DNA from: a virus
IMG/VR virus record: IMGVR_UViG_3300047496_000172
Coordinates: 1-64,000 of that record
Strand: one strand, 5' to 3'
Length of the DNA stretch: 64,000 bases
Within the stretch, counting starts at the first letter, position 1; each line of letters opens with the position of its first letter. Of the stretch, positions 9,664-59,580 are shown one piece after another. The notes under the pieces are model-generated. The model searched no databases and was not told where the DNA came from. It saw only the letters and a program-made list of their open reading frames with translations. Made by a program: the position numbers and the translations under genes.

Positions 9664-10206
9664 GTGAACGAAGCCGATAAAATCTTTACAAATAATTGGT
9701 GGTCTGCTCTCCTAAAAGATGAAGAGCGGCTTCAAAAATGGCTGATCAAACTCGAAACCACTGAACGCCAAGGTTTTGATGACAATATTGATGCTATTGA
9801 AAATTACGCTCAAGACAATCTTCCCGCTAAAACAATTCTCCACGCGACTGCGAACTGTTAAAATTTTTGCAAGCATGTCTGCGTGACGAAGTTCGTCCCA
9901 GGCGATCCATCTTGGAAAGAACAGCCCGCTCCAATTCCTTCTAATTATTGGGAGGAAATGTATAAAGGAATTGTAGACCTATCCTCTTGTGCAGCGGCTT
10001 TTGCGTTGGGAGAAGGTCTCGCCGCTGAACGTTTTGAAGTCCTTCAAGCCCATCCAGAAACGCCCTCAGATATTAAATGGTTTTTGGATAACGCTCTTCC
10101 TGATGAACAGCACCATCAAAGAATATTTCTCAAATTGGCTGGTGATGCTATGGATAAAATGCTAATACGGCATCTTTCAGCCGTAGAAAACTTGAAGAAG
10201 AAATGA
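9664..10206 (+). pseudogene. Ferritin-like diiron protein broken by a 54-bp inversion (9850..9903)
   Basis: Two same-frame ORFs separated by TAA at 9859. Reverse-complementing 9850..9903 gives a continuous 180-aa ORF with DELRH; the second ExxH (DEQHH) lies downstream. Confidence 0.85.
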
Positions 10207-10805
10207 CCACCAAAATCGTTTATAATTCGAAAAAATATCAAAAACCAGATGAACCGCATCCCACTTTGGGCGAAGGATTTTGGCTTTCGTTTCCTCTTGG
10301 TGATGACGGTTCTCCGGTCATGCCTTTTCCCAGAGTTTATTTTAGGTTGGATGGAACGAAAGATTTTCTAAACGAAAGCGATATTGATTCCAAGTTCGCA
10401 AAAATTTTGTGCAACTTAATTACTAATGAACTTCTATCTTATTTGAACCTGATTGATTTAGAGATTGAATACAGCCCCATACCACCAGAATATATGAACG
10501 AGTTAGCTATTCTTGTTCATGAGAAGAAAATTTCGTCTAAGACGGCCAAAGAAGTTTTTCAATTAATGACGGAAAGCTTTCTGTCACCAAAACAAATTGT
10601 GGCTGATAGAAATCTGGAAATCGACACCAACACTGGCGAACTTGAAAAATTCATTGAAGAATTGGTTGCCAGTAATCCGAAACAGGTCGAAGCTTGCAAG
10701 TTGAAGCCGCAAGCGATTGGCTGGTTTATCGGTCAAATTATGAAGAACTTCAAGAATTCTGATCCAACTCAGATCAGAGAATTGCTGATGGAAAAACTTG
10801 TCTAA
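10203..10805 (+). CDS. GatB C-terminal/Yqey domain protein
   Basis: ISSKTAKEVF, V..NPKQV, GWFIGQIMK and DP motifs; the GatB catalytic domain is absent. Confidence 0.8.
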   Translation: MTTKIVYNSKKYQKPDEPHPTLGEGFWLSFPLGDDGSPVMPFPRVYFRLDGTKDFLNESDIDSKFAKILCNLITNELLSYLNLIDLEIEYSPIPPEYMNELAILVHEKKISSKTAKEVFQLMTESFLSPKQIVADRNLEIDTNTGELEKFIEELVASNPKQVEACKLKPQAIGWFIGQIMKNFKNSDPTQIRELLMEKLV

Positions 10806-11094
10806 AATATTATATGATTGGGAAACTTACGTTCCAGATATGAAGTTCCTTCATATAAGTGAAGGTGTAAAACGTTACATTGATAATGTAGAGTTAGACT
10901 ACCAAGTCACTATACATTATACTCACCCATTATTGATGGTAAATAAAAGTAAATCAATTTATAGTTATTATTTTGGTCCAGAAATAAAAGAATGGATTAA
11001 AGGAAAAAAGTATAGTGTTTCTTCTCAAGGCTATAATTGTCAAATAAGAATGACAAAACAGGACATGGCACTCTTTCGATTATTTTTCTGTTAG
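10798..11094 (+). CDS. Small FK(L/M)xW/F-family protein
   Basis: C-terminus DMALFRLFFC. Confidence 0.65.
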   Translation: MSKILYDWETYVPDMKFLHISEGVKRYIDNVELDYQVTIHYTHPLLMVNKSKSIYSYYFGPEIKEWIKGKKYSVSSQGYNCQIRMTKQDMALFRLFFC

Positions 11095-11334
11095 AACTTA
11101 CGAAGAAGATTATCCGCGCGCTTTCCTGCTTGCCCTCTTGCCAAACTAAACAGTTGATTTTTCGTAGCCTTACGCTTAGGTCGTGGATTATAATTTCCAG
11201 CTATAGCATCGCGTGTTTTCGCAAAGTTGCGTCTTACATCTTTAAAACCACCTACAATTATTTGCATGACGTACTCCTCTATTAGTATAGAAATACTATC
11301 ACAATTTATATAGTTGTAAAGCAATATTTGGGGG

Positions 11335-11622
11335 TCAAAGCCAAAAAAGTTTGAATAAAATAAAATCACGATCATCGTCATATTCTAATAAAAAATATAA
11401 TATGAGATTATCATCTCGAACGTTAATTGAGGTTTCTAGCTTTATATTAAACTTACCATATATATTATAATCTATCCATTGTTGGATATCGTCTATCCAT
11501 TGTATCGGATAGTATTTAATGATAGCATTAACCTTATCATATTTTTCAAATAATAAATCTTCTATGACCATATCATTACTAAATTTTACTAAAGAAGAAA
11601 TGTTTGGAAGATATCTATACAT
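11335..11622 (-). CDS. Small FK(L/M)xW/F-family protein
   Basis: C-terminus DRDFILFKLFWL. Confidence 0.7.
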   Translation of the reverse strand: MYRYLPNISSLVKFSNDMVIEDLLFEKYDKVNAIIKYYPIQWIDDIQQWIDYNIYGKFNIKLETSINVRDDNLILYFLLEYDDDRDFILFKLFWL

Positions 11623-12163
11623 ATTTCATTAATTTTCGAATAGCCAATTTTCCATTGTTGGACAAATCTCTACTTCCAATTCCGGCCCAAATACCATGAG
11701 GCATAGGCGGCTGATCTATTTTAACCCATTGGTTATCCCACATGAACCAAGCATCTTCTACTTGATCAAACACGTAGCATTCGCTTGGCTCATCGTTATG
11801 CCGATCTAACCACATCGAAATCGCCCAACCGGTTCCACCCTGAACCAAACCATCCTTGATAGTGGCTACGGCGTAGACGCGCTCGGCATCTTTTACCTGA
11901 TACCAATTACGCCGAAGAAGATTTCTAACGAAGAGGCTCTTGGGAGGAAACCATCGTTTAATTCTTTTACTGGCGGCCATACATGCCTCGTCAGCGGCTT
12001 CTAGTTGATCTTTGGACAGTATTATGACTTCTACATCTGGGGCCTGTGTCCGATGCCCAGCAAACGAAAAATGAACAACAGAATGGCCAGCCATTCCAGC
12101 GGTCATACCCCATTGAAGGTCTGCTCCTGATGCTCCTCCTGATAACAATACATTATCGTTCAT
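11615..12163 (-). CDS. SLOG/DprA-like Rossmann-fold protein
   Basis: SGGASGAD, RRNW, GGTGWA and AGIGSR motifs. Confidence 0.55.
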   Translation of the reverse strand: MNDNVLLSGGASGADLQWGMTAGMAGHSVVHFSFAGHRTQAPDVEVIILSKDQLEAADEACMAASKRIKRWFPPKSLFVRNLLRRNWYQVKDAERVYAVATIKDGLVQGGTGWAISMWLDRHNDEPSECYVFDQVEDAWFMWDNQWVKIDQPPMPHGIWAGIGSRDLSNNGKLAIRKLMKYV

Positions 12164-12169
12164 TGCTCA

Positions 12170-14179: not shown

Positions 14180-14974
14180 TCAATACAACCAACACTTATT
14201 TACGAATGGTTCTATTTTAGACCATTTACGTTGTAAGCCTCTTCCTTTATATATTTTTTTATATAAAGCAACTGCACTTTTACCACTAAAAACGATTTCA
14301 TATAAATTTGGTATATTTTTGTGATTTCTGATAGAACAAGGTAAATCTGTCCAAACGCCAATAAAGTCTATAATTTCTTTTGAGGCCAACAGATTAATTA
14401 ATACATTTTTTTGTTCTTTTGAAGAAAAATAAATACAACCATCACCGTCAATTAATCCTACTAACCATTGTGATATCAAAGTATCATCTCCTTTAATACA
14501 CTCTGGAACTCGATTAACTTTGGATTTCCTCGGAAAAATTTCCCATAGTTTCATATCTTCAATTATATAAGGATTGTTTATAACACAAGAATATTTAATC
14601 TTTCCATTTGATTTCTGTGAACGATAGTATAATGGTTTAGTTGAACCAACAAATTGTTTTAGCCCATTTACTAATTCATAATCTAAACAACTTAGTTCCA
14701 ATACATAACTTTCAGATTTCCCACTTTTCTTAATACAACCATCTGCGCTAATAACACCAGCCCAATAAGCCGTTTCTTCCGTTGGAGTTAAAAATATATT
14801 TTCATTACTACATGAATATTTTTGGTTACCTATTGGTAACGGAATCATATATGAAGATGCCCACCAAACAATTTTATCTCTACTACAATTCCATTGTTGA
14901 GCTAACAAAGTTGGACTGTTATTCTTAAGCCCGTCAATTAAATCATTTCTTGATGGCACATTTTTTTTAGTCAA
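14180..14974 (-). CDS. Free-standing LAGLIDADG homing endonuclease
   Basis: AYWAGVISADGC and WLVGLIDGDGC. Confidence 0.88.
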   Translation of the reverse strand: MTKKNVPSRNDLIDGLKNNSPTLLAQQWNCSRDKIVWWASSYMIPLPIGNQKYSCSNENIFLTPTEETAYWAGVISADGCIKKSGKSESYVLELSCLDYELVNGLKQFVGSTKPLYYRSQKSNGKIKYSCVINNPYIIEDMKLWEIFPRKSKVNRVPECIKGDDTLISQWLVGLIDGDGCIYFSSKEQKNVLINLLASKEIIDFIGVWTDLPCSIRNHKNIPNLYEIVFSGKSAVALYKKIYKGRGLQRKWSKIEPFVNKCWLY

Positions 14975-16129: not shown

Positions 16130-16879
16130 TCATATTGTAAAAATCTCGTATCCAGTTTCCGTAACACCAATTGAATGCTCCCACTGAGCACTTAATGTTT
16201 TGTCCTTAGTGACAGCCGTCCAACCATCACTAAGAATCTTCGTATCTGGCTTTCCAATATTGATCATCGGCTCAATAGTGAAGAACATTCCTGGAACAAA
16301 CGGTATTCCTTTGTAATCTGCATGTGGCATGAAGTGTAAAATTTGAGGATCATCATGGAAAACTCTTCCAACACCATGACCAACAAAAGTTTCAACCACC
16401 GAAAACCCATTTTTATGAGCATGATCTTCAATTGCTTTAGCAATATCACCCGTAAAACCACCCGGCTTTACCTGTTCAATTGCCAAATATAAACATTCTC
16501 GGGTAACATCGATCAATTTCTTAGCCTTGGCATTAATCGAACCAACTGCATACATTCGACTATGGTCGCCGTGCCAGCCATCAAGGATGACCGTATAATC
16601 AATATTGGCGATGTCGCCCTCGCGTAAAATCTTGGCACCAGGAATGCCATGACAGACCACATGATTGACGCTGATGCACAACGTCTTTGGATATCCTTTG
16701 TAGCCAAGACAAGCGGGAATACCATTATTTGCAAGCATGAACTCTCTTGCTAAGTTGTCAAGAGTTTCTGTTGCCACGCCTGGAACCACGAATTGTGTCA
16801 GATAGTCAGCGCATTGCGCTGCAAGCTTTCCAGCAGCACGCATGCCATTCCAATCTGCTTCATCTGTATGAATAATCAT
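16130..16879 (-). CDS. map: Methionine aminopeptidase type I
   Basis: CISVNHVVCHGIP, DHSR, GHGVG..FH, FTIEPM and SAQWEH. Confidence 0.96.
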   Translation of the reverse strand: MIIHTDEADWNGMRAAGKLAAQCADYLTQFVVPGVATETLDNLAREFMLANNGIPACLGYKGYPKTLCISVNHVVCHGIPGAKILREGDIANIDYTVILDGWHGDHSRMYAVGSINAKAKKLIDVTRECLYLAIEQVKPGGFTGDIAKAIEDHAHKNGFSVVETFVGHGVGRVFHDDPQILHFMPHADYKGIPFVPGMFFTIEPMINIGKPDTKILSDGWTAVTKDKTLSAQWEHSIGVTETGYEIFTI

Positions 16880-16889: not shown

Positions 16890-18251
16890 TCAATCAACCA
16901 AGCCGCCAGTCTTCTTTTCCAGATCAAAATTAGCTTCGATGAAGTCAATAACTTCTGCCGCTGGCGTGTTTCGATTGAAAACAATATTCGGGCCATGATT
17001 ATCGAGCATTACGGCATGAATATCATTAGAATATGGGCGAAGATTACGGCTGGTGTTGGCTCCGCAATTGTGCGATCCACATTCGTATTCCATCTGTGAA
17101 GCAATGTTCACAAAGTCTCGTGGATTTTCCTTAAGAGGAACGTGGGCATGCACGATGCAATCAAGTTCCGGATGCTCACGGAAAACAATTCGCTGCGATT
17201 GTCCACCAACAGATGGTTTCGCGCCGTGAGCGATGACCTTTGTATCATCTTCGTATTCAACCAACACCAATCCTTCGTCAGAAAGATTGTTGAAATTTCT
17301 CTTACGCTTCGACGTAAGGACGCGTCCTTCATCTAGCTTAACGGCGAAGTGACCAGCCGTTACACCACGGAAAGGTTTGTATGCGCCGCGATTGATACAA
17401 TGATTCACAACTTTACGAAGATTATCAGGAATCAAATCTGAATCCCAAGGAACCGATGTGCCTTCGTCAATAACAGTGGATCGAGTGAAGGTATTGGTAG
17501 AACGAGCCAAAACCATCTTGACTAGACCGTCAAGCATTTCATCACGATTGGTAGTCTCGAAATAGCGGGTTTCTTCGGGAGCTACAATCATGTTGTTACG
17601 AGTTACAGTATCATTGGCTACCACTAAATTAACACTATCGCGTTTTAGTGCATTCAGAGCTATTTTATACTGTTCGTCCGAAGTTGCACCAGTAGTGGTT
17701 TTGAAGGCAACCACGAAAATATCTTTGCGAACCTTTCGAATGCTGCCTACCAATTTATCGGCTGGAACAAGTTTCATTTCTTGATTGCCGTCAGAAGTCT
17801 TAAGGCGGATATCATGTGACCCAGACAAGGTAATCTTCTTTTTATTGGAAAAAGTAGAATTTTCTGGATCGTTCTCTAAAATAAAACCATTATAATCACA
17901 GAGAGCAGCATTCAAAATGATGACGCGGGTTTCCGGATCAGCAATGAGAGTATTGAGTAAAGCCGCAACATCATCATTTGTCACCAACTTACTTGTTGGA
18001 TCAGCCATCTTGGTCAAATGAAGATAATAATCATTGGCCCAAACCATTTCATCCCAACCACCTTGCGGATCAGTATTTGCTTTACCGGGATCATTGCTCG
18101 CAAACTTGTGCGCCAACTCACGAGCAGTTGTTCCAAACGCAGGAGCGGCCAACGCCAAATGATTGCGAACATGCGATAGTGTGCCTCCTCCAATAATGTG
18201 AATTTTACTCATTGAGTTTTCCTTTCGCAAATATCTATTACTCCGATCCAT
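16890..18251 (-). CDS. CoaB-like (phosphopantothenoylcysteine synthetase) domain fused to a class II aldolase-like domain
   Basis: N-half has GGGT..VR, AALCDY, VAFK and VVAND. C-half has HAH and NHG metal-binding pattern. Confidence 0.6.
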   Translation of the reverse strand: MDRSNRYLRKENSMSKIHIIGGGTLSHVRNHLALAAPAFGTTARELAHKFASNDPGKANTDPQGGWDEMVWANDYYLHLTKMADPTSKLVTNDDVAALLNTLIADPETRVIILNAALCDYNGFILENDPENSTFSNKKKITLSGSHDIRLKTSDGNQEMKLVPADKLVGSIRKVRKDIFVVAFKTTTGATSDEQYKIALNALKRDSVNLVVANDTVTRNNMIVAPEETRYFETTNRDEMLDGLVKMVLARSTNTFTRSTVIDEGTSVPWDSDLIPDNLRKVVNHCINRGAYKPFRGVTAGHFAVKLDEGRVLTSKRKRNFNNLSDEGLVLVEYEDDTKVIAHGAKPSVGGQSQRIVFREHPELDCIVHAHVPLKENPRDFVNIASQMEYECGSHNCGANTSRNLRPYSNDIHAVMLDNHGPNIVFNRNTPAAEVIDFIEANFDLEKKTGGLVD

Positions 18252-18870
18252 ACAAATGAAAACGAGACAACAGAGACTTCAATTCACCGTTTCTACCAAA
18301 AACATACCCGCAGGTATCAATAGAAAGCGAGTGAAAAGTTTCACCGTCCTTGATTTTATAATCGGGATCATTGACGATACCCACATGAAAACCATTCTTC
18401 TTGGCGGTAGCAACCGTCTCGTGCATTTCTTGTTCGTTGACTGACAAAACAATACCTGTTCCGAAACCTGCGCCAGTTTCGTCTTCCCAATCCTTCAGTA
18501 ATTCGCGGCGAACATCATCAAGAGGCATACAAAATTGAAGTTCAAAAACCATTTGGTTAGCTGCATGCATGGCTTGAGCACATGCGCGGCCACTATTAAG
18601 ACTTTCCATGTCATTTCGCATCAAAATGTATTGGCGCGGCTGGATCATTAGCATGTAATGATCCAATGCTTTTTCGAGAGATTCATAATCTACAGGAGAA
18701 TTGAGTATGGAATTCGCGCGGATGCTTGCCAGAAAATTATCAATGGCGATATCCAAACCATAATACTCTTCTTCGGAAGAGATTTTAGATTGAATAACTG
18801 TTGTCAGCCAACCTTCATAATGACTTCTACGCGTGGGCACATAGTAGGAAATATCTTCTTTCGTCAGCAT
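18238..18870 (-). CDS. Peptidyl-tRNA hydrolase, Pth2 type
   Basis: YILMRNDM..GRACAQAMHAA, W...GF..IVL, DP and TC. Confidence 0.8.
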   Translation of the reverse strand: MLTKEDISYYVPTRRSHYEGWLTTVIQSKISSEEEYYGLDIAIDNFLASIRANSILNSPVDYESLEKALDHYMLMIQPRQYILMRNDMESLNSGRACAQAMHAANQMVFELQFCMPLDDVRRELLKDWEDETGAGFGTGIVLSVNEQEMHETVATAKKNGFHVGIVNDPDYKIKDGETFHSLSIDTCGYVFGRNGELKSLLSRFHLYGSE

Positions 18871-19177
18871 AAAATGATCTCCTTTATTCTAAATCATTAT
18901 AGACTATTTTTATTTATTGTCAAGGTCAGATTTAGACATTTTCAAAAACACACAAAAACGTTTCCATTCGCTCTGAATCAAAGGATTAGTCTTAATTTCC
19001 TCGTGATATTGCATAATTAGTTGTATTTCTGGAATGTCTTCCAACGCAAAATATTGATGAATAGCTTGTGTCATCAAATCCCCTTTACTAATTTTCTTTC
19101 GAAAAGATTTTATCCGAAGTTTATCATCATCGGTGTTATCCAAATAGAGCGTTCGTAAAACCCGGCCCATTCTGCAA

Positions 19178-19691: not shown

Positions 19692-19722
19692 TTGACATAA
19701 AAATCATCAGCGAGTATAAATA
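19692..19722 (+). promoter_or_regulatory. Dual sigma70/late promoter of the tRNA cluster
   Basis: TTGACA-17 bp-TATAAA, overlapping TATAAATA; ATG 19728 lies 7 nt after the -10 box. Confidence 0.8.
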
Positions 19723-19727: not shown

Positions 19728-19859
19728 ATGACTTACGCACTCAACATCTCCCGCACCGGTTCGGCCTTCGGCCAGGATCGTGGAGATATGGGCGGTCGCG
19801 GCGAACGAGAACTTCGCGCCGGGGCCATTTGTCGTGCGGATGGCGGAACCCAAGTCTAA
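19728..19859 (+). CDS. Putative leaderless leader peptide (43 aa, Gly/Arg/Asp/Glu-rich) upstream of the tRNA-Asp/Gly/Glu cluster
   Basis: MTYALNISRTGSAFGQDRGDMGGRGERELRAGAICRADGGTQV*. The stop lies inside the GGAACC/GGTTCC hairpin. Confidence 0.65.
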   Translation: MTYALNISRTGSAFGQDRGDMGGRGERELRAGAICRADGGTQV

Positions 19860-19943
19860 GGTTCCCCCTTCTCCCAAAGACAATTTGCTCCCGGCGACTG
19901 GTTAATTACCAGCACGGATGACTCTATCCAAAATCAAAATAAT

Positions 19944-20019
19944 GGTCGTGTTTCAATCTGGTTGATTGTATTCCGCTGTCTACGGAACAAGGCTGGTTCG
20001 ATTCCTGTCACGACCGCCA
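19944..20019 (+). tRNA. tRNA-Asp(GUC)
   Basis: GGTCGTG/CACGACC acceptor, TTCCG-CT GTC TA-CGGAA, GTTCGATTC, encoded CCA. Confidence 0.9.
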
Positions 20020-20027
20020 TTTTTGAT

Positions 20028-20103
20028 GCGGGTATGATGTTTAATGGTAGCATGTGCGATTGCCTGTCACACTGATTCGGTTCGAGTCCGAATATCCGCT
20101 CCA
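20028..20103 (+). tRNA. tRNA-Gly(GCC)
   Basis: GCGGGTA/TATCCGC acceptor, U73, loop TT GCC TG, GTTCGAGTC, CCA. Confidence 0.9.
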
Positions 20104-20136
20104 TTGATTTTGGATAGAGTCATCCGTGCTCCGTTT

Positions 20137-20211
20137 GGAGCCTTCGTATATCAGCGAATACATCTGACCTTCACTCAGAAAAGGCCGGGGCAGCACCGGT
20201 AGGCTCTTCCA
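20137..20211 (+). tRNA. Atypical tRNA-Glu(UUC)
   Basis: GGAGCCT/AGGCTCT acceptor, TCTGA-CC TTC AC-TCAGA, non-canonical T-loop GGCAGCA, CCA. Confidence 0.75.
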
Positions 20212-20213: not shown

Positions 20214-20288
20214 GCTCCCTTCGTCTAATGGTAGGACAACAGATTCTCAGTCTGAAAACATTTCGGTTCGATTCCGATAATACTCTTC
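20214..20288 (+). pseudogene. tRNA-Glu(CUC)-like gene with a non-pairing acceptor 3' strand
   Basis: D-arm, anticodon loop TT CTC AG and T-arm are present. The 3' strand AATACTC cannot pair with 5' GCTCCCT, and there is no CCA. Confidence 0.65.
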
Positions 20289-31942: not shown

Positions 31943-32377
31943 ATGCATAGTCAAATTTGGATGGATGGCTACAATTATTTGATGGCGCGGACGGCCAATC
32001 CTTATCCTCGTGACTCGGTGGAACATCGCGATTGGTTCGACGGTTGGACGCATCGTTTTCGTGGCATTCCGATTGATGAACCGCTTCCCCAAGACCTTTT
32101 TGATGAATATTGTGGAATTAGCGACGACGAACTTATTCGCCGTCACGCCATAGCGCGTCAAGCTCACGCAATGGCAGACGAAGCTGCCTTTGAAAATAGA
32201 GGCGAGATTCCCGAAGGAGAGATCATTCTTGCTGGTCCTGCACCAAAACGTGGGCGGCCTCCGGGTTCAAAAAACAAAACTATCGGAAATGGGAACAGCC
32301 TCTCTATGATTCCTACGGCTACCGGTCAAAAGCGGCGTGGGCGCCCGCCGGGTTCAAAAAATAAAAAGAAGGGTTGA
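31943..32377 (+). CDS. AT-hook DNA-binding protein with an RMF-like N-terminus
   Basis: Two RGRPPGSKNK hooks; N-terminal GY...NPY......W..GW. Confidence 0.7.
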   Translation: MHSQIWMDGYNYLMARTANPYPRDSVEHRDWFDGWTHRFRGIPIDEPLPQDLFDEYCGISDDELIRRHAIARQAHAMADEAAFENRGEIPEGEIILAGPAPKRGRPPGSKNKTIGNGNSLSMIPTATGQKRRGRPPGSKNKKKG

Positions 32378-45675: not shown

Positions 45676-46236
45676 TCATCTATGATGATCTTGAGAAACA
45701 AAATCAGGCAAAGTTTTCATTTTTTCTCTAATTTCCCGTAAGGTTATAGGAGAATAATTCCAGCAATCTACGCCAACATCAATCTGTTGTTTGTTTTGGG
45801 AAGCCCCACCATGTGAATGTCCAAATAATTGAACGGCACCTTTGTGGCATTTATTAAATATAGCAAATTTAAAATGGCACAAGACAATTTTTTGATTTTG
45901 GTCGATAATCTCCAAATAAGGTTGAACCGATGCCCAGCGATAAGATTCGATTGTCGTTGGACCATCGTGATTTCCGGTAATCAAATGTAATTCTTTTCCT
46001 TGAAGACGAGAAAGAATGGCGTTTGGATTTGCTTTGTGTCTCCCCAACAAAACATCTCCAAGGACATAAACGCGATCATCATCACTGACAACATTATTCC
46101 AATTTTTGATTAATGCTTCGTCATGTTCTTCAATGGTCTGGAAGGGCCTGTTGCAAAATTTTAAAATATTTCGCTCTGAACTTGTGTAATGTCCGTAATG
46201 AGGATCGCTTGTATAAAATGTTTTCATCATATCCAT
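45676..46236 (-). CDS. Calcineurin-like metallophosphoesterase
   Basis: SDPH, LGDV, GNHD, LCH, GHSH and DVGVD. Confidence 0.92.
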   Translation of the reverse strand: MDMMKTFYTSDPHYGHYTSSERNILKFCNRPFQTIEEHDEALIKNWNNVVSDDDRVYVLGDVLLGRHKANPNAILSRLQGKELHLITGNHDGPTTIESYRWASVQPYLEIIDQNQKIVLCHFKFAIFNKCHKGAVQLFGHSHGGASQNKQQIDVGVDCWNYSPITLREIREKMKTLPDFVSQDHHR

Positions 46237-46787: not shown

Positions 46788-47117
46788 ATGCGTAAAAGAT
46801 ATCATAAAAGACGGAGATATCAAATTTTCCCGCAGAGGATTAGCCCTGTATATATAATTAAGTTTGGAAAATATGGTAGATACATACCGCATATCGAAAA
46901 ATCTTACGCAAAATTGGATGAACCGATCAATGGTAATCGCGCCAATTACAGATACTATTCTGTAAAAGGGGATGGCGGCGATTGGGCTTATGACGATTTG
47001 ATTCTAACAAAATCCCAATCCATATTAGCGTTGGCCCATTACCGGTTGCATAATATTCATGCTAGGTTTATAGATTACGAGAAGAACAGCTTGAAAATTG
47101 GAGATCATTCAGCATAG
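46788..47117 (+). CDS. Hypothetical protein, paralog of 46300
   Basis: Same motifs as 46300..46620. Confidence 0.7.
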   Translation: MRKRYHKRRRYQIFPQRISPVYIIKFGKYGRYIPHIEKSYAKLDEPINGNRANYRYYSVKGDGGDWAYDDLILTKSQSILALAHYRLHNIHARFIDYEKNSLKIGDHSA

Positions 47118-47710
47118 TTTTCCCAGCTATCAGCATATATTCCTTTAAGTTTTTCCAAATATGCGCGCGTTTTTATTTTAACCATAAAGTCTTCGCCCTT
47201 GCAAACGACGCCTTCTTCAACCGGATATTTTCCAGCCCGAACATCTTCTATGAATTCGGAAGTTAGCTCGCCTTCATAAATTATTTCCGGACACCACTTA
47301 AAATCGCAGAATATATTCATAAATTTTTTAACAGGGATGAAACCTTTCTTGAACACGAATATGTCCAATAGTTTCAACTGTTTTTCTTCTCCGTCAATAT
47401 GAGAGCCAGCAAAACTACCTTCTCCAAAGAATTCGGTGAATGCCGTTATACGCTGGCACTTCTTATCCATAGATAAAATCATATCTTTAATGGTTTCTGC
47501 TGGACCATTGAGAAATAATGGAATGGCTTCATTGTAAATCAGCGTCGTATGATCAAAAAGTTGATGCCGCGTGCCAAACTTATGCCAACCTTTTTTAGGA
47601 GACCACTCCCAGCGAAGTGAACTCCCATCATATTTATATTGAGCAATAATCGGTTTTCCTAAATACTGAAAAGCTATTTTAGAACCCGGTATAGATGGAT
47701 ATTGTTGCAT
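47105..47710 (-). CDS. RNA ligase-like nucleotidyltransferase (Rnl2-like)
   Basis: YPSI, KYDGS, E.FG, EGVVCK and KIK; adjacent to a tRNA. Confidence 0.8.
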   Translation of the reverse strand: MQQYPSIPGSKIAFQYLGKPIIAQYKYDGSSLRWEWSPKKGWHKFGTRHQLFDHTTLIYNEAIPLFLNGPAETIKDMILSMDKKCQRITAFTEFFGEGSFAGSHIDGEEKQLKLLDIFVFKKGFIPVKKFMNIFCDFKWCPEIIYEGELTSEFIEDVRAGKYPVEEGVVCKGEDFMVKIKTRAYLEKLKGIYADSWENYAE

Positions 47711-47899: not shown

Positions 47900-47973
47900 T
47901 GGTGCCGATAGTAAGAATCGAACTTACATCTCCATATTACGAGTATGGCCGTCTACCACTGACATATACCGGC
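47900..47973 (-). tRNA. tRNA-Thr(CGU)
   Basis: GCCGGTA/TATCGGC acceptor, CCATA-CT CGT AA-TATGG, GTTCGATTC, CCA. Confidence 0.93.
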
Positions 47974-47997: not shown

Positions 47998-48042
47998 TCA
48001 GGCGATGCTGGTCGTTCGCGTCAATGTTAGGACGTTGATCAT
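47998..48042 (-). CDS. Putative leaderless Thr-rich leader peptide upstream of tRNA-Thr
   Basis: MINVLTLTRTTSIA* with codons ACA, ACG, ACG, ACC; TAAATA 6 nt before the ATG; the stop overlaps the TCGCCT/AGGCGA hairpin. Confidence 0.65.
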   Translation of the reverse strand: MINVLTLTRTTSIA

Positions 48043-48370: not shown

Positions 48371-49159
48371 ATGTCTAAAGTGACCTGGATTCTTGAACGC
48401 GATGTTTTCGCGGAAGTTTGCTTCAATGAAATGATCGATCATTTCAAGGCGAACGATATTCCTTATCGTGTCGTCAGGATCATTCCATTTATTCATGAAA
48501 TTGAAGGAAAGGTTCCGCAGGTTTCCGATCCGGTTGTCGTCTATGGCAGCATCGGTGTGCAAACCCTGGCTCAACGCCATGGATGGGTTCCTGGCGTATG
48601 GACTAATGACAATTTCGCATCTGGTGGTTCGACCGAGATTTCTGATCTTCTGGTAAACGGTTCTTTTGAAATTATGAAGTTGAGCGAAGTCGCCGACAAG
48701 GTAATGCTCGATGAATTTTTCATCAAACCCAATAGCGACAACAAAGAATTCGCTGGAATGGTTATTACTCGCGAAGAATTTGGTGTTTGGCATGCTAAGA
48801 TGCTCGACATCAACTATTTGGAAACCGATGACTTTGATGTTATCGTGGCGCCATATCGAAAGCTTGGTTGCGAATGGCGAGTGGTCGTAGTGAATGGAAA
48901 GATCAGTTCAGCATCGATCTATCGGCAATACGGTATCGTCAAGCCAGAACGTCATATTATTCCAGAAGTGGAAAGCATTGTAATGGAAGCGCATAGCCGA
49001 TTTGTGCCCGCACCAGTATATGTAGTAGACGTAGCACAGGTCGGAGATGAATACAAAATCATCGAATATAACACCTTCAATTCAGCCGGTCTGTATGCTT
49101 GTGATGTTGGAAAGATCATCGATGACATTAACGCTTTCCTTTTAGATCAAGCTCAATGA
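48371..49159 (+). CDS. ATP-grasp domain protein (DUF4343/R2K-like)
   Basis: FIKP...K.F.G, EWR..VV, YVVDV and IIEYN....G.Y. Confidence 0.8.
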   Translation: MSKVTWILERDVFAEVCFNEMIDHFKANDIPYRVVRIIPFIHEIEGKVPQVSDPVVVYGSIGVQTLAQRHGWVPGVWTNDNFASGGSTEISDLLVNGSFEIMKLSEVADKVMLDEFFIKPNSDNKEFAGMVITREEFGVWHAKMLDINYLETDDFDVIVAPYRKLGCEWRVVVVNGKISSASIYRQYGIVKPERHIIPEVESIVMEAHSRFVPAPVYVVDVAQVGDEYKIIEYNTFNSAGLYACDVGKIIDDINAFLLDQAQ

Positions 49160-49383: not shown

Positions 49384-50079
49384 TTACCAAACTTGATCCA
49401 TATACCCTTTCATGAATTTTTTAGCTGACATAGACTTTCCTTTTTCGTGATTTACAACGGTATCATCTTGAAATCTTAGCGTAAAATTTTTATCAGATCG
49501 CATTCCACTACCGACTTGGTTTTTTCTATCTTTTGCGATAGCGGAATATTTTTCTGAATTACTTCTTTCGTCGAGTGTTTTTATGATCGCTTCTTTTGCG
49601 TCTCGTAGATTAGATATTCTTTCTCTTCCTTGTCTTGCTTCTATAATACCAGTTGGTATATGAATTAATCGACAAGAGTTGGGGTGACGATTTCGATGTT
49701 GGCCGCCATTTCCGGTTCCAGAGAACCATTCCACGCGAAAATCGTCATCAGATCGTTTTGAATAAATGTCTGAAGTTGTTGTTTCAGGATTTATGACAGC
49801 ACAAGTTATAGTTGAGGAATGAACGCGTCCTCGTTTTTCAGTAGGAGAAACACGCTGGGTTCTTATTCCACCAGAACCATTATGTAAAATTTCGAGATCG
49901 GCGCCAATAATTTCGATTGCAACTTCGGCATACCCTGCATCAGATGGGCGTTCTCTGACGATGCGGGACTTTCAACCTTTACGAGTCGCCAGCTTTAAAT
50001 AAGCCTTCATCAAATCAGCACAAAACATACTCGCGTCGAGTCCGCCTTCACCTGATCGTAATTCCACAATGCGAATCAT
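49384..50079 (-). CDS. Class I peptide chain release factor homolog lacking domain 1, with in-frame UGA at codon 36 (231 aa if read through)
   Basis: MIRIVELRSGEGGLDASMF...RKG*KSRI...QRVSPTEKRGRVHSS...GNGGQHRN in a single frame; SD AAGGAG and TAAATA upstream. Confidence 0.88.
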
Positions 50080-50623: not shown

Positions 50624-51050
50624 CAATACGACATACGAAGAATTCGAGAACAAAGTCAGAGATGTTATTATCTCTGTCCATAAGCCGCAAATCTGCGTCA
50701 GAGATAATAAGGCCAAGGTTGGATACAAATACATTCCAGATACGAAATTTGATATTAACACTTATCTAACGCTTAAATGGGAAATTGGTGGAGCCAGGGG
50801 CGGAAATTGTTGGGGTGATGATGCTTGCCAATATACCAGCTATACAGAAGAACCCGATTTTACTTTATTGGATAGCATCTTAGAAGCAATTGTTCCTGAT
50901 ATTTCTTTTTTGAAATACAAATCAATCGTTTCGCAAGTTATCATAAGAAAAAGTGGGACTGATATGGAGTATTATGGAAATTATACTGATTATAAGACCA
51001 AAACTCTTGATCTTCAAAAACTTTATTATTTGTTGTTTGGTGACCAATGA
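50616..51050 (+). CDS. Hypothetical protein, paralog of 50186
   Basis: Same motifs as 50186..50623; MDSN.TYEEFE start. Confidence 0.7.
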   Translation: MDSNTTYEEFENKVRDVIISVHKPQICVRDNKAKVGYKYIPDTKFDINTYLTLKWEIGGARGGNCWGDDACQYTSYTEEPDFTLLDSILEAIVPDISFLKYKSIVSQVIIRKSGTDMEYYGNYTDYKTKTLDLQKLYYLLFGDQ

Positions 51051-51442
51051 TCGAAGTAAAAGTTCTGGTAGGATTGCCTGGATCGGGTAAATCTTACTAT
51101 GCCAACACGATTGTTGATGCTGAGACAACCATCATTGATGATTTGAATAGAAATCTGACGGCATTAGAAGAATTCAAAAATAATCCTACGTCAAAATTGA
51201 TCATTACTGATCCCTCAGCTTCACTATCATCTCCTGATAAAATAAAAGAAAAGGTTATTCAATGGCTCGGTGAAGATGCGACAGTTGATATCTTCGCATT
51301 TGAAAATGATTTAGAAGCTTGCTGGGCTAATGTCGTTCGGCGAAATGATGGTCGGATCATATCTAAACCCTACATGAAATCGTTGAGTAAGTTTTACGAT
51401 CCAGCCATATTTGATAAAATTTTACCTGTTTATCGACCTTAA
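51047..51442 (+). CDS. P-loop kinase (PNK/AAA_33-like)
   Basis: VGLPGSGKS, IDD and C..N...R. Confidence 0.7.
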   Translation: MIEVKVLVGLPGSGKSYYANTIVDAETTIIDDLNRNLTALEEFKNNPTSKLIITDPSASLSSPDKIKEKVIQWLGEDATVDIFAFENDLEACWANVVRRNDGRIISKPYMKSLSKFYDPAIFDKILPVYRP

Positions 51443-57606: not shown

Positions 57607-57891
57607 ATGGCCACTCCTAAGGGTATTCTCGTCATTCTTATTGATCCTGAAGGTAAAGTTTGGGGTAAAGGCGCGGACTTTGACACCTTTAAGGGTGGAG
57701 ATTCGAACCTTAAGACGGCTCAAGAAAGACGTGCCAATATAGCGTTGGCTAAGGATTTTTTCCACAACACTTGTTCGCCTGTTGTCGGGGATATTCTTGC
57801 GAACGATTTTCAAGGATCGCAAATCATTCGGAGAATTCTGGAAAAGGGTTGGCGACTGGACACTACGGAGATTGGTTATGAGGAGAATTAA
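57607..57891 (+). CDS. Hypothetical protein
   Basis: SD GGAG; co-oriented. Confidence 0.6.
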   Translation: MATPKGILVILIDPEGKVWGKGADFDTFKGGDSNLKTAQERRANIALAKDFFHNTCSPVVGDILANDFQGSQIIRRILEKGWRLDTTEIGYEEN

Positions 57892-58185
57892 AAATGATGT
57901 ATGATGATTTGCCGGATGTACCGGATTTATTTTTTGTAAGTTTTGAAAATGATGATCCAGACATTGGATTTTTCCTTCAATTTTTTGGTGAAACGGCTGA
58001 TGCAACGTTGGATGGTATTTCGTTCATGGTTGATGCTGAAAAATTGATGGCATCATTTTAGTAAACGAAGATAATTGACACAAAAATATTTTAAATTTAT
58101 GATCTGAATCTAACGAAAGGGATTTTATGAAAACGTTCGGATATTTTATGGTAGTCACTCTTATTATTGCGGCAATTCCACAATA

Positions 58186-58515
58186 ATGGACGCTTTGCGT
58201 AAAGCGGCACTTCTGACCCTAGAAGGGTTGGATGTGCCGAATACAAAGCAATATACTAATATTGCTGGTTATGATATTCAAATTAGAACTGAATGGGCCT
58301 TCACTAATCTTGTTTGGATGAAACAAACATGTATAGATAATATTGAAACTTTTCCAATTGATAAAATAAATCGTTGGATTGGTTTCATACAAGGTGCCCT
58401 TGCTGCTCAAGGTATGCTTAATGTGTCCCAAGAGCGAGATCGCACTCGACCATTTTTTCATGCAGCGTATAAAGAATTGGAAATAAATATTCCAGATACC
58501 TTGACTAAACCTTAG
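58186..58515 (+). CDS. Hypothetical phage protein
   Basis: DK..RW.GF.QG...ERDRTRP pattern. Confidence 0.6.
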   Translation: MDALRKAALLTLEGLDVPNTKQYTNIAGYDIQIRTEWAFTNLVWMKQTCIDNIETFPIDKINRWIGFIQGALAAQGMLNVSQERDRTRPFFHAAYKELEINIPDTLTKP

Positions 58516-58778
58516 CTTATGTTAATATAAGTTTCCTATCCATTTGAGAGGAAATAATATGTTAAAATTTGGTAAGCGATAATGGAACAGTCAGATATGC
58601 TCGCGAAATATAAACGCGAAAAAGAATCGGCTTATCGCAATTTTCGTCTTAATAAACGGTTCATGGCATTTGATATGATAAAAATGAAAGGCGAACGATA
58701 ATTCGTCAGTGGTTCAGAGATCGATTGAAAAATCTAAAAACTGCTTGACTTAACCTGATTTTTTTCGTAGATAAAAGA

Positions 58779-58913
58779 GGCCGGTCTTATGACTTAACAG
58801 AGACCTAAAATAAGTTAGTCCGGTTTTCCAAGGGTTCCGAGAAACCCGATGCTGTTGTTAGAAATAGTAACCATTCTTAAAAAAGCCCTCGACGTTGCCA
58901 ACGTCGAGGGCTT
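58779..58913 (+). ncRNA. Putative small pseudoknotted RNA with its own promoter and palindromic end
   Basis: TTGACT-17-TAGATA promoter; GGTCT/AGACC stem whose loop pairs with GTTAGTC; perfect palindrome at 58883-58913. Confidence 0.5.
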
Positions 58914-58962
58914 GACTATAATTAAATGTCAATTATAATGATCATAATAAAGGAGATTTATT

Positions 58963-59580
58963 ATGAAATTTGAAAAACAACTTCTTGTTCTGCGCTCACA
59001 CCTTATCGGAGCCAAATATTATAATGCTTTGTCCGCAATGGAATTCGCGGCGAAATATCACACTGGTATGCGTAAAGATGGTGTGACTCATGAATTTTCA
59101 CACCAAACGAGCATCGCCCTTCATGCGCTGACCCTTCCCGATCTCATGTTCCGCGAAGAAGTCATCGCGACGATTTTCCTGCATGATGTGCGTGAAGATT
59201 ACGGGATCACAGACACCGAAGTTCGAAACCTCTTCAATGATGAAAAGTTCGCAGAGCGTGTTGCTCAAGCTGTTGAACGGATGACTAAAGAATTCCGTGG
59301 TGTGAAATGTGATGAAGAAGAACTCTTCGCCATCATGGCTACCGATCCTATTGCCAGTATCGCCAAAGGTTGCGACAGAGTCCACAACTTCCAATCAATG
59401 GTTGGTGTGTTCACGAAGACCAAGCAACAGTCTTATATTGCGGAATGTAAGGCTCTTTTCTTCCCGATGCTTAAGACTGCTCGTAGAAACTTTCCACACC
59501 AAGTCATGGCTTATGAAAATATCAAGCATACTCTTCGAAGCCAAATCGAACTGATTGAAGCTATGCATGAGCATATGTAA
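58963..59580 (+). CDS. HD-domain hydrolase (RelA/SpoT/Mesh1-like)
   Basis: H.G.RKDG...F.H, LHDV.ED, TK and K..DR.HN. Confidence 0.85.
   Translation: MKFEKQLLVLRSHLIGAKYYNALSAMEFAAKYHTGMRKDGVTHEFSHQTSIALHALTLPDLMFREEVIATIFLHDVREDYGITDTEVRNLFNDEKFAERVAQAVERMTKEFRGVKCDEEELFAIMATDPIASIAKGCDRVHNFQSMVGVFTKTKQQSYIAECKALFFPMLKTARRNFPHQVMAYENIKHTLRSQIELIEAMHEHM

What the first reader, a model, noticed from the sequence alone, without database searches (positions are those of the whole stretch)
10203..59580. A dispersed translation-insurance toolkit with apparent demand-sensing control
Seen: GatB/Yqey domain, MAP, Pth2, five tRNA or tRNA-like genes, an RNA ligase beside tRNA-Thr, a PNK-like kinase, a release factor, an RMF-like protein and a SpoT-like HD hydrolase. 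Three of these loci carry elements that would be read by the ribosome itself (two codon-matched uORFs, one internal UGA). Inference: a coherent counter-defence layer in which each spare part is induced by loss of its host counterpart.
Basis: inference. Interest (0 to 1): 0.72.

Follow-up and report, generated by a model that had tools for sequence, protein, structure and literature searches.

The report
Huge-phage translation genes, one real gate
A fragment of a huge phage from a moss metagenome carries the scattered translation and tRNA-repair helper genes typical of such phages; only one of the three proposed ribosome-read switches holds up, a conserved stop codon inside a short release-factor gene.

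Summary
The window is the first 64 kb of a 106.6-kb IMG/VR record, about 18% of a huge phage from a moss metagenome.

**Inventory, mostly real.**
- Confirmed: a GatB/YqeY tail domain, type I methionine aminopeptidase (MAP), a Pth2-like protein and a SpoT-type HD hydrolase.
- Confirmed: a minimal RNA-ligase-type enzyme next to tRNA-Thr, a metallophosphoesterase, a small PNK-like P-loop kinase and three tRNAs.
- Also present: one tRNA-shaped RNA and one degenerate tRNA.
- "RMF-like" fails, at 14.8 bits against a 27.9-bit cut-off.

**Switches.**
- The in-frame UGA at codon 36 of the domain-1-less RF1-type gene is real. All 84 relatives examined (45-61% identity) carry TGA at the same conserved Trp column, and this genome uses TGA as an ordinary stop.
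- This scan has already reported the same gate on at least seven other genomes.
- The two "codon-matched" mini-ORFs are not supported. There is no terminator. Enrichment is marginal or absent (p = 0.01 post hoc, and p = 0.13). None of 307 other phage tRNAs shows the pattern systematically.

**Coherence.** The genes do not travel as a set: in 26 related huge-phage records MAP occurs in 0, YqeY in 4, Pth2 in 18 and HD_4 in 15. Several have consensus sigma-70 promoters or sit in operons, which suggests programmed rather than demand-induced expression.

**Verdict.** An ordinary huge-phage repertoire. The demand-sensing layer is not supported.

The parts
10203..10805 (+). Stand-alone GatB/YqeY tail domain protein (200 aa). 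It has a tRNA-binding-type domain only and no amidotransferase catalytic domain. Its start overlaps the upstream gene by 4 nt.
   Evidence: PF02637 E 7.7e-33, residues 64-199. NCBIfam GatB models match only their C-terminal ~140 positions.
16130..16879 (-). Type I methionine aminopeptidase.
   Evidence: PF00557 E 5e-47. TIGR00500 288.6 bits, above the cut-off of 171. TAAATA box 10 nt before the start.
18238..18870 (-). Pth2-like peptidyl-tRNA hydrolase domain with a 75-aa N-terminal extension.
   Evidence: PF01981 35.1 bits, above the cut-off of 23. phrog_1866 E 2.7e-21. Below the NCBIfam equivalog cut-offs.
18896..18923 (-). Consensus sigma-70-type promoter (TTGACA-16-TATAAT) in front of the Pth2-like gene.
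   Evidence: One of 7 such sites in 106.6 kb, against 1.35 in shuffles.
19692..19720 (+). TTGACA-17-TATAAA promoter-like site in front of the tRNA cluster.
19728..19859 (+). 43-codon mini-ORF ('uORF1') inside a GC-rich (about 61-63%) structured leader. Probably not a regulatory leader peptide.
   Evidence: GGY+GAY count is 9 of 41 codons, against 3.9 +/- 1.8 in shuffles (p 0.01, post hoc). The leader folds with z -2.3. No terminator. No Rfam match.
19911..20130 (+). Perfect 27-nt inverted repeat (19911-19937 and 20104-20130) enclosing tRNA-Asp and tRNA-Gly. Likely a double-stranded processing stem.
   Evidence: Unique in the genome.
19944..20019 (+). tRNA-Asp(GUC), with U at position 37.
   Evidence: ARAGORN. 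Rfam tRNA 33.3 bits.
20028..20103 (+). tRNA-Gly(GCC), low-scoring, with U at position 37.
   Evidence: ARAGORN. Rfam only 18.1 bits.
20137..20211 (+). tRNA-shaped RNA: a 75-nt cloverleaf with UUC anticodon, C33 and an encoded UCCA end. D- and T-loops are non-canonical.
   Evidence: The minimum-free-energy fold is a cloverleaf, -24.3 kcal/mol, z -2.2. Not called by ARAGORN or Rfam.
20220..20279 (+). Degenerate tRNA core with D, anticodon and T arms but no acceptor stem.
   Evidence: Rfam tRNA 28.8 bits, model positions 7-64. No acceptor pairing.
31943..32377 (+). The 'RMF-like' protein: a weak RMF/CrpP-like N-terminal motif followed by two KRGRPPGSKNK AT-hook-like repeats. Not a supported RMF.
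   Evidence: PF04957 14.8 bits, below the cut-off of 27.9. Sequence. Sigma-70-type promoter at 31888-31915.
45676..46236 (-). Metallophosphoesterase. Candidate end-healing phosphatase or cyclic phosphodiesterase.
   Evidence: phrog_547 'phosphoesterase' E 2e-48. PF12850 weak, 23 bits against a cut-off of 27.
47105..47710 (-). Minimal ATP-dependent RNA-ligase-type nucleotidyltransferase (201 aa).
   Evidence: KYDG, EFFG, EGVVCK and KIK motifs. phrog_548 E 5.9e-6. Top fold matches are T4 Rnl1, Rnl3 and Rnl2. Homologues lie in tRNA arrays in 5 of 6 loci, which are 4 of 5 distinct because L090 and L091 are duplicates.
47900..47973 (-). tRNA-Thr(CGU).
   Evidence: ARAGORN. Rfam 64.3 bits.
47998..48042 (-). 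14-codon mini-ORF MINVLTLTRTTSIA ('uORF2'). Most likely a chance ORF.
   Evidence: ACG x2 gives p 0.13 and ACN x4 gives p 0.06 against dinucleotide shuffles. No terminator upstream of the tRNA. Six other phage tRNA-Thr(CGU) genes lack such a leader.
48371..49159 (+). R2K-clade ATP-grasp protein between tRNA-Thr and the RF gene. Role unknown.
   Evidence: PF14243 E 8.7e-16. phrog_7313 E 3e-63.
49384..50079 (-). Short RF1-type class I release factor (231 codons). It lacks domain 1, has GGQ, and its tripeptide motif reads SPT.
   Evidence: PCRF and RF-1 domains are seen only on read-through. prfA model positions 115-342, 161 bits. Alignment A1.
49972..49974 (-). In-frame TGA at codon 36, in the column of a conserved Trp. 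This is the translational gate.
   Evidence: All 84 relatives have TGA here, preceded by a Gly codon and never followed by T. TGA is a normal stop in 47 of 159 ORFs, and recoding it does not raise coding density.
51047..51442 (+). Small P-loop kinase (131 aa), PNK-like by fold. It overlaps the upstream gene by 4 nt.
   Evidence: AAA_33 P-loop E 2.6e-4. Fold matches to Trl1-type kinase, PNKP, Pnkp1/Rnl/Hen1 and T4 Pnk at E 2e-3 to 1.5e-2.
58912..58939 (+). Near-consensus sigma-70 promoter (TTGACT-16-TATAAT) in front of the HD hydrolase.
58963..59580 (+). SpoT/Mesh1-type HD hydrolase. Candidate small alarmone hydrolase.
   Evidence: PF13328 32.3 bits, above the cut-off of 27.2. phrog_15275 E 3e-33. 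LHDVREDYG HD/ED motif.

Best explanation
This is an ordinary accessory region of a huge phage. It holds independently acquired helper genes for translation and RNA repair, interleaved with anti-defence genes (Acb1, macro domain), homing endonucleases and structural genes.

**Likely roles, all inferred**
- The tRNAs, the ligase-type enzyme, the metallophosphoesterase and the PNK-like kinase replace or reseal tRNAs damaged by host nucleases.
- The HD hydrolase removes (p)ppGpp-type alarmones or toxSAS-installed tRNA 3'-pyrophosphate.
- MAP, the Pth2-like protein, the YqeY domain and the short release factor keep ribosomes productive during infection.

**Expression**

It most likely follows the phage's fixed transcription programme. 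Pth2-like, the tRNA cluster and HD_4 have host-type consensus promoters. MAP and the structural genes have TAAATA boxes. YqeY and the kinase sit in operons.

**The one ribosome-read control element**
- It is the in-frame UGA at Trp codon 36 of the release-factor gene.
- Full-length protein requires near-cognate reading of UGA by tRNA-Trp, or by a suppressor tRNA, in competition with host RF2.
- This either holds output at a few percent or couples it to the ratio of Trp-tRNA to RF2.

The two mini-ORFs before the tRNAs are most likely chance ORFs in structured tRNA leaders.
For: **Inventory**
-.

**UGA gate**
- 84 of 84 relatives at 45-61% identity have TGA in the same column, with a conserved N-terminal segment.
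- The genome uses the standard code.

**Programmed expression**
- Only 7 consensus sigma-70 sites occur in 106.6 kb, against 1.35 expected. They precede Pth2-like, the tRNA cluster, HD_4 and the 'RMF-like' ORF.
- YqeY and the kinase overlap upstream genes by 4 nt.
- A TAAATA box lies 10 nt before MAP, as it does before the tail-sheath stabiliser and other genes.

**No set-wise co-occurrence**
- In 26 related huge-phage records: MAP 0, YqeY 4, Pth2 18, HD_4 15, small ligase 6. Four of those six ligase records were in the set because they carry the ligase, so among the 22 release-factor-selected records the count is 2.

**tRNA linkage of the repair and termination genes**
- 55 of 84 release-factor loci have tRNAs within 3 kb, and 328 of 330 of these tRNAs are co-directional with the gene.
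- Ligase homologues lie in tRNA arrays in 5 of 6 loci, which are 4 of 5 distinct loci.

**Literature**
- Huge phages carry RF1/RF2, tRNAs and tRNA-ligation genes, and none carries the full set (PMC7162821).
- tRNA arrays carry RF-1, Pth and tmRNA (PMC5966550).
Against: - No expression data exist. The only runs holding this DNA are moss-metagenome DNA, so constitutive expression is inferred from promoter-like motifs alone.
- uORF1 does show nominal enrichment of GGY and GAY codons in its frame (p 0.01), and it starts at the predicted transcription start. A regulatory role in this one phage is therefore not excluded.
- No close relative of the tRNA loci was found, so conservation could not be tested directly.
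- The ligase and kinase assignments rest on weak fold matches from medium-confidence models.
- The contig is about 18% of the genome, so missing parts such as tRNA-Trp or suppressor tRNAs cannot be judged.
Confidence: 0.72

Rival explanations
1. The genes form one coherent counter-defence layer, and each spare part is switched on by loss of its host counterpart, read out by the ribosome at two codon-matched uORFs and one internal UGA.
For: - The gene set is real.
- The UGA is conserved.
- uORF1 is nominally enriched for codons read by the downstream tRNAs.
- Both mini-ORFs start a few nucleotides after promoter-like boxes.
Against: - Only 3 of about 10 loci have any candidate switch.
- No terminator or antiterminator exists at either leader.
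- uORF2 is not enriched (p 0.13).
- 307 other phage tRNAs show no systematic cognate-codon leaders.
- The UGA senses RF2 while the product is RF1-type.
- The parts do not co-occur.
- Several have consensus constitutive-type promoters or are operonic.
- YqeY is a tail domain only and Pth2 is not the bacterial Pth type, so they are not literal spares.
Confidence: 0.06
2. Only the tRNA-Asp/Gly leader (uORF1) is a genuine ribosome-dependent sensor. Stalling at GGY or GAY codons remodels the GC-rich leader and the 27-bp stem, and so changes processing or stability of the tRNA precursor. The rest is an ordinary repertoire.
For: - 9 of 41 codons are GGY or GAY in that frame, against 0 and 2 in the other frames and 3.9 in shuffles.
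- The ORF starts at the predicted +1 of a TTGACA-17-TATAAA promoter.
- The leader is structured, z -2.3.
- The stop codon lies in a hairpin.
Against: - It is a post hoc single case. A GC-rich structured RNA can give Gly-rich frames.
- There is no U-tract terminator.
- No relatives are available to test conservation.
- I know of no precedent for leader-peptide control of tRNA genes (own knowledge).
- The strong structure would hinder translation of a leaderless ORF.
Confidence: 0.1
3. The translation genes are decaying passengers picked up by horizontal transfer and have little current function.
For: - There is a degenerate tRNA core and low-scoring tRNAs.
- The CCA-adding enzyme is split, with a TAG in the second part.
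- GC content is patchy, at 30-52%.
- A LAGLIDADG endonuclease and an intein lie nearby.
- MAP is absent from all 26 related records.
Against: - MAP scores above its equivalog cut-off.
- HD_4 keeps its catalytic motifs.
- The release factor and its gate are conserved in 84 of 84 relatives.
- The ligase family keeps 73% mean column identity and its tRNA linkage.
- Dedicated consensus promoters are present.
Confidence: 0.1

Closest known systems
Translation-gene repertoires of huge phages (Al-Shayeb et al. 2020, PMC7162821) and tRNA arrays carrying RF-1, Pth and tmRNA (Morgado & Vicente 2018, PMC5966550)
   Same: - tRNAs, release factor, peptidyl-tRNA hydrolase, tRNA-ligation genes and a CCA-adding enzyme on a huge-phage genome.
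- The release factor and the ligase are physically tied to tRNA arrays in relatives.
- No phage carries the whole set.
   Different: - This fragment adds a full type I MAP. MAP occurs in 0 of 26 related records and 38 of 50,697 phage records, several of which look like bacterial contamination.
- It also adds a stand-alone YqeY domain.
- Its tRNA complement is small and partly degenerate.
prfB (RF2) autoregulatory recoding: an early in-frame UGA bypassed by a +1 frameshift (reviewed in PMC5009743 and PMC12421855)
   Same: A release-factor gene is interrupted early (codon 36 here, codon 26 in E. coli prfB by own knowledge) by a UGA whose termination efficiency sets the yield of full-length factor.
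   Different: - Here the UGA is in frame, so read-through is needed rather than a frameshift.
- It sits exactly at a conserved Trp codon.
- The product is RF1-type (PPT in 77 of 80 relatives, SPT here), so in most of the family it should not recognise its own gate.
- No significant downstream hairpin is present in this window (z 0.24).
T4 Pnkp + Rnl1 tRNA repair against the PrrC anticodon nuclease, and bacterial Pnkp/Hen1 or Pnkp1-Rnl-Hen1 RNA repair
   Same: - A ligase-type nucleotidyltransferase with KxDG and motifs III-V.
- A P-loop polynucleotide-kinase-like fold.
- A phosphoesterase.
- Placement next to tRNA genes.
   Different: - The three activities are on separate small proteins spread over 6 kb and both strands.
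- The ligase is only 201 aa and has no C-terminal domain.
- The healing phosphatase would be a calcineurin-type metallophosphoesterase, as in Clostridium Pnkp, rather than the T4 DxDxT type (own knowledge).
- No activity has been shown.
Leader-peptide transcription attenuation (trp, his, thr operons)
   Same: A short ORF upstream of the regulated genes, containing codons related to the downstream product.
   Different: - There is no terminator or antiterminator pair and no U-tract.
- The Rfam leader models match only as noise elsewhere in the window.
- The regulated product would be a tRNA, not a biosynthetic operon.
- The pattern is not seen in other phage tRNA arrays.
Phage small alarmone hydrolase PaSpo (Salmonella phage SSU5), which counteracts toxSAS toxins (bioRxiv 10.1101/2024.07.05.602228; PMC9712102)
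   Same: A stand-alone SpoT-type HD domain of about 200 aa on a phage, with intact HD and ED motifs.
   Different: - The substrate is unknown.
- The phage's tRNA-Gly and tRNA-Thr keep the G1-C72, C2-G71, G4-C69 and Pu5-Py68 determinants that FaRel2 recognises (read), so they are not obvious escape variants.

Membership tests
Class I release factor RF1 (prfA) | PCRF and RF-1 domains with a GGQ motif | tested here: met
   PF03462 E 9e-21 and PF00472 E 4e-13 on the read-through product. GNGGQHRN is present in the sequence.
Class I release factor RF1 (prfA) | Full length including N-terminal domain 1; score above the equivalog cut-off | tested here: not met
   The match covers prfA model positions 115-342 of 361 only, at 161 bits against a cut-off of 423.
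Class I release factor RF1 (prfA) | PxT tripeptide 'anticodon' (PMC1586002) | tested here: not met
   The window reads SPT. Of 80 relatives, 77 read PPT and 1 reads SPT.
prfB-type autoregulatory recoding | Early in-frame UGA conserved across the family | tested here: met
   TGA at the same column in 84 of 84 relatives.
prfB-type autoregulatory recoding | +1 frameshift required; product recognises the gating codon | tested here: not met
   The reading frame is unchanged across the UGA. The family motif is RF1-type PPT, which should not read UGA. That last step is inferred from PMC1586002 and was not assayed.
Leader-peptide attenuator | Intrinsic terminator with an alternative antiterminator between the leader ORF and the regulated gene | tested here: not met
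   No terminator-like sites in 19300-20600. None lies between the mini-ORF and tRNA-Thr.
Leader-peptide attenuator | Regulatory codons enriched beyond local composition | tested here: inconclusive
   uORF1 p 0.01 (post hoc). uORF2 p 0.13 for ACG and 0.06 for ACN.
Leader-peptide attenuator | Conservation of the arrangement in relatives | tested here: not met
   No close relatives of the loci were found. Among 307 other phage tRNAs, only about 6 non-Met mini-ORFs have 2 or more cognate codons. Six tRNA-Thr(CGU) genes have no Thr-rich leader.
ATP-dependent RNA ligase (Rnl) nucleotidyltransferase | Motif I KxDG lysine plus motifs III, IV and V | tested here: met
   KYDG, EFFG, EGVVCK and KIK are invariant in 6 homologues.
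ATP-dependent RNA ligase (Rnl) nucleotidyltransferase | Significant sequence or fold match to solved RNA ligases | tested here: inconclusive
   No PDB sequence match. Foldseek top hits are all RNA ligases, but at E 1.4e-3, TM 0.49 and pLDDT 64. phrog_548 E 5.9e-6.
Polynucleotide kinase (T4 Pnk / PNKP type) | P-loop kinase fold closest to PNK-family structures | tested here: inconclusive
   GLPGSGKS P-loop. Best matches are Trl1-type kinase, PNKP, Pnkp1 and T4 Pnk at E 2e-3 to 1.5e-2, with pLDDT 62.
Ribosome modulation factor (RMF, PF04957) | Score above the Pfam gathering threshold; a small stand-alone protein of about 55 aa | tested here: not met
   14.8 bits against 27.9. The match is part of a 144-aa protein with AT-hook-like repeats.
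Type I methionine aminopeptidase | Equivalog model above its cut-off over the full length | tested here: met
   TIGR00500 288.6 bits against 171.35, residues 6-248.
Peptidyl-tRNA hydrolase Pth2 | PF01981 above gathering; equivalog models above cut-off | tested here: inconclusive
   Pfam 35.1 bits against 23, so that criterion is met, covering profile positions 2-81 of 115. NCBIfam 28.5 against 126 and 20 against 82, so those are not met.
GatB amidotransferase subunit | Catalytic GatB N-terminal domain plus the YqeY tail | tested here: not met
   Only the C-terminal ~140 positions of the GatB models match. The first 60 residues have no match.
SpoT/Mesh1-type small alarmone hydrolase | HD_4 domain above gathering, with HD and ED catalytic motifs | tested here: met
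   32.3 bits against 27.2. The LHDVREDYG motif is in the sequence. The substrate was not tested.

The most novel reading that the evidence does not exclude
The 43-codon leaderless ORF in front of the tRNA-Asp/Gly cluster would be a true ribosome-read sensor. Stalling on GGY or GAY codons when those host tRNAs are cleaved or depleted would remodel the GC-rich leader and the 27-bp processing stem and raise output of the phage's replacement tRNAs. Together with the UGA-gated release factor, this would mean huge phages tune spare translation parts by translational feedback.
Probability: 0.07. Interest if true: 0.8.

Novelty: new member of a known kind. Interest (0 to 1): 0.3.

Why it matters
If the demand-sensing idea were right, it would show that phages measure the state of the host translation machinery and dose their counter-measures accordingly. 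That would be a new regulatory principle.

The evidence here instead points to a familiar picture. A huge phage carries a variable, independently assembled set of translation and tRNA-repair helpers expressed on its normal programme.

The part of lasting interest is the UGA gate in the short RF1-type release factor:
- It is a large family: 360 IMG/VR contigs by tblastn, and 84 of 84 examined carry the TGA.
- It is tightly linked to phage tRNA arrays.
- I did not find it described in the papers I searched.
- This scan has already reported it on several other genomes, so this window adds one more member, distinguished by its SPT motif.

Tried and rejected
**Genome-wide TGA recoding (code 4 or 25): rejected**
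- 47 of 159 ORFs end in TGA.
- Coding density does not rise when TGA is read as sense: 0.910 against 0.915.

**Pseudogene or sequencing error at the release-factor UGA: rejected**
- All 84 relatives carry the TGA.

**Stimulatory hairpin after the UGA: not supported in this window**
- z 0.24.

**Search for close relatives of the tRNA loci: nothing usable**
- Megablast and blastn against phages found nothing.
- Pth2-like protein in viral contigs gave only 36-43% identity hits without synteny.
- The metagenome scan gave no hit.
- An exact tRNA-Asp 25-mer in viral contigs gave no hit.
- Conservation of uORF1 and uORF2 could therefore not be tested directly.

**Rfam leader-like matches: treated as noise**
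- Trp_leader at 38374-38446, His_leader at 58877-59027 and PYLIS at 16811-16893 are all far below their gathering scores.
- The tRNA leader has no Rfam match.

**Low-stringency ARAGORN calls: false positives**
- tRNA-Leu at 36990 and tRNA-His at 89464 lie inside ORFs.

**toxSAS escape by the phage tRNAs: no sign**
- tRNA-Gly and tRNA-Thr keep the FaRel2 acceptor-stem determinants.

**RNA evidence**
- No RNA holder is listed. The only holders are two moss-metagenome DNA runs that may be the source.

**Two other in-frame TGA 'merges'**
- 8686-9378 and 18910-19707 were judged likely chance and not pursued.

**Literature searches**
- Four searches for a phage release factor with an in-frame UGA found no description.
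- This is not proof that it is unpublished.

Full report
**Context**

The window is bases 1-64000 of a single 106,578-bp IMG/VR virus record. The record is classed as linear, with a CheckV completeness of about 18%, so it is a fragment of a huge phage. The only sequencing runs holding it are moss-metagenome DNA runs.

Phage hallmarks and accessory genes are interleaved:
- a T4-gp15-type tail-sheath stabiliser;
- an Acb1 anti-CBASS homologue and a macro domain protein;
- a DnaJ-domain protein;
- an NAD-dependent DNA ligase;
- a LAGLIDADG endonuclease;
- an intein-bearing ABC ATPase.

No phage record is similar at the DNA level.

**Inventory**

| Item | Coordinates | Evidence |
|---|---|---|
| GatB/YqeY tail domain | 10203-10805 (+) | E 7.7e-33; only the C-terminal ~140 positions of GatB models match |
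| Type I MAP | 16130-16879 (-) | TIGR00500, 288.6 bits, above cut-off |
| Pth2-like domain | 18238-18870 (-) | Pfam above cut-off, NCBIfam equivalogs below |
| SpoT-type HD hydrolase | 58963-59580 (+) | HD and ED motifs intact |

The 'RNA ligase beside tRNA-Thr' is 47105-47710 (-). It has all the nucleotidyltransferase motifs (KYDG, EFFG, EGVVCK, KIK) and a PHROG 'RNA ligase' match. Its top fold matches are T4 Rnl1, Rnl3 and Rnl2, though they are weak. Its homologues lie inside tRNA arrays in 5 of 6 other phage loci, which are 4 of 5 distinct loci because L090 and L091 are duplicates. That is good contextual support for a tRNA-directed role.

A metallophosphoesterase (45676-46236, phrog_547) lies within 6 kb. 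So does a 131-aa P-loop protein (51047-51442) whose best fold matches are polynucleotide kinases. With the ligase-type enzyme they give a plausible heal-and-seal trio.

The 'RMF-like' protein fails. It scores 14.8 bits against a 27.9-bit cut-off, and the match is the N-terminus of a 144-aa protein with two AT-hook-like repeats.

**tRNAs**

- ARAGORN finds Asp-GUC, Gly-GCC and Thr-CGU, and nothing more in the whole contig.
- tRNA-Asp scores low (33.3 bits) and tRNA-Gly is below the Rfam gathering score (18.1 bits). Both have U at position 37.
- Downstream lies a 75-nt RNA that folds as a perfect cloverleaf with a UUC anticodon and a UCCA end. It lacks canonical D- and T-loops (20137-20211).
- After that comes a tRNA core with no acceptor stem (20220-20279).

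'Five tRNA or tRNA-like genes' is therefore a fair description, but only three are credible tRNAs.

A perfect 27-bp inverted repeat encloses tRNA-Asp and tRNA-Gly.

**Switch 1: the internal UGA**

From ATG 50079, which has a GAAGGAG ribosome-binding site, one frame runs to the stop at 49384. It has a single interruption, TGA at 49972-49974. Read through, it gives PCRF and RF-1 domains. It matches RF1 model positions 115-342, so it is an RF1-type factor without domain 1.

The genome is not TGA-recoded.

Relatives are abundant: 360 IMG/VR contigs by tblastn. In all 84 examined, at 45-61% identity, there is exactly one in-frame stop. It is always TGA, always after a conserved Gly codon, and never followed by T. 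The N-terminal 35 residues are conserved in frame, so they are translated as part of the protein.

By my own recollection of RF1 sequences, the column corresponds to the conserved Trp of RF1. Near-cognate reading by tRNA-Trp would therefore restore the native residue.

The family motif is PPT (RF1-type) in 77 of 80 relatives. This window and L052 read SPT.

Release-factor loci sit in co-directional tRNA arrays: 55 of 84 have tRNAs within 3 kb, and 328 of 330 of those tRNAs are on the same strand.

There is no significant hairpin after the UGA here.

This gate is real. However, earlier agents of this scan have already reported it on at least seven other genomes.

It also does not fit 'induced by loss of its host counterpart'. 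UGA is read by RF2, while the product is RF1-type.

**Switches 2 and 3: the mini-ORFs**

uORF1 (19728-19859) has 9 GGY or GAY codons among 41. Dinucleotide shuffles give 3.9 +/- 1.8 (p 0.01, chosen post hoc). It lies in a 61-63% GC stretch that folds significantly (z -2.3).

uORF2 (47998-48042) is not enriched beyond local composition: p 0.13 for ACG and 0.06 for ACN.

Neither leader has an intrinsic terminator or any Rfam match.

I surveyed 307 non-redundant phage tRNAs from the fetched loci:
- mini-ORFs with two or more cognate codons are rare and scattered, about six besides Met;
- six other tRNA-Thr(CGU) genes have no Thr-rich leader.

No close relative of this phage was found, so direct conservation could not be tested. 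I therefore treat both mini-ORFs as probably fortuitous, and uORF1 as a low-probability lead.

**Coherence**

Only 7 consensus sigma-70-type promoters occur in the contig, against 1.35 in shuffles. They precede the Pth2-like gene, the tRNA cluster, the HD hydrolase and the 'RMF-like' ORF, among others.

The Pth2-like and HD genes also share very similar 5' leaders. MAP has the same TAAATA box at -10 nt as the structural genes. YqeY and the kinase overlap their upstream genes by 4 nt.

This looks like fixed temporal programming rather than individual induction, although no expression data exist.

Occurrence across 26 related huge-phage records (13 at least 90% complete):

| Family | Records with a match |
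|---|---|
| MAP | 0 of 26 |
| YqeY | 4 of 26 |
| Pth2 | 18 of 26 |
| HD_4 | 15 of 26 |
| Small ligase | 2 of the 22 release-factor-selected records |

The parts vary independently. This matches published statements that no huge phage has the whole translation set (PMC7162821) and that tRNA arrays carry RF-1, Pth and tmRNA (PMC5966550).

**Verdict**

- The claim of a coherent, demand-sensing layer is not supported.
- The finding is a new member of a known kind. Its most interesting element, the UGA-gated short release factor, has already been recorded by this scan on other DNA.

Noticed in passing
window 19911-19937 and 20104-20130: A perfect 27-nt inverted repeat encloses tRNA-Asp and tRNA-Gly with 166 nt between the arms. 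It is unique in the contig. It could be an RNase III-type processing stem or the ends of a small tRNA cassette.
   Followed up: partly
window 20137-20211: A 75-nt RNA folds as a textbook cloverleaf with UUC anticodon, C33 and an encoded UCCA. It lacks D- and T-loop consensus and is invisible to ARAGORN and the Rfam tRNA model. It may be a decoy or a non-canonical tRNA.
   Followed up: partly
window 23023-24108 and 26269-26730: An Acb1 anti-CBASS domain (E 7e-33) occupies the first 160 residues of a 361-aa protein. A macro-domain protein lies nearby behind a consensus sigma-70 promoter at 27323-27352. This looks like an anti-defence neighbourhood.
   Followed up: no
window 16890-18251: A 453-aa protein between MAP and the Pth2-like gene combines a CoaB/DFP-like (phosphopantothenate-cysteine ligase) region with a class II aldolase/adducin domain. 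This is an unusual fusion of unknown role.
   Followed up: no
window 6533-8395: An ABC-type ATPase is interrupted by an intein (Hint plus homing endonuclease domains). A free-standing LAGLIDADG endonuclease lies at 14180-14974.
   Followed up: no
window 59937-62786 and 3846-5627: Two GC-rich patches (about 51-52%) carry host-like genes. One holds a DUF1190 protein and a glutathionylspermidine-synthase-like ATP-grasp protein, a YjfM/YjfC-like pair. The other holds an OmpA-family protein.
   Followed up: no
window 31943-32377: A protein with a weak RMF/CrpP-like N-terminal motif (GY..NPY..W..GW) followed by two KRGRPPGSKNK AT-hook-like repeats, behind a sigma-70-type promoter. It is more likely DNA-binding than a ribosome hibernation factor.
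   Followed up: partly
L013 2615-3008; L002 8316-8387: In relatives, a permuted tmRNA gene abuts the start of the UGA-gated release-factor gene (L013). In L002, a tRNA with a UCA anticodon (opal-reading, called 'SeC' by ARAGORN) lies 1.7 kb from it on the opposite strand.
   Followed up: no
G000:C1 103825-104656 (outside the window): The CCA-adding enzyme (PolyA_pol domain) is split into two adjacent matches. The second contains a TAG.
   Followed up: partly
window 18871-18923 and 58912-58962: The Pth2-like and HD hydrolase genes share near-identical promoter and leader cassettes (TTGAC[AT]-16-TATAATGAT...ATAAAGGAGAT...ATG). This suggests a common early expression class.
   Followed up: partly
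related huge-phage records G001-G026: Pth2-type hydrolase domains are common in these huge phages, in 18 of 26 records and with up to three matches per genome. Bacterial hosts normally use the unrelated Pth1 type.
   Followed up: partly
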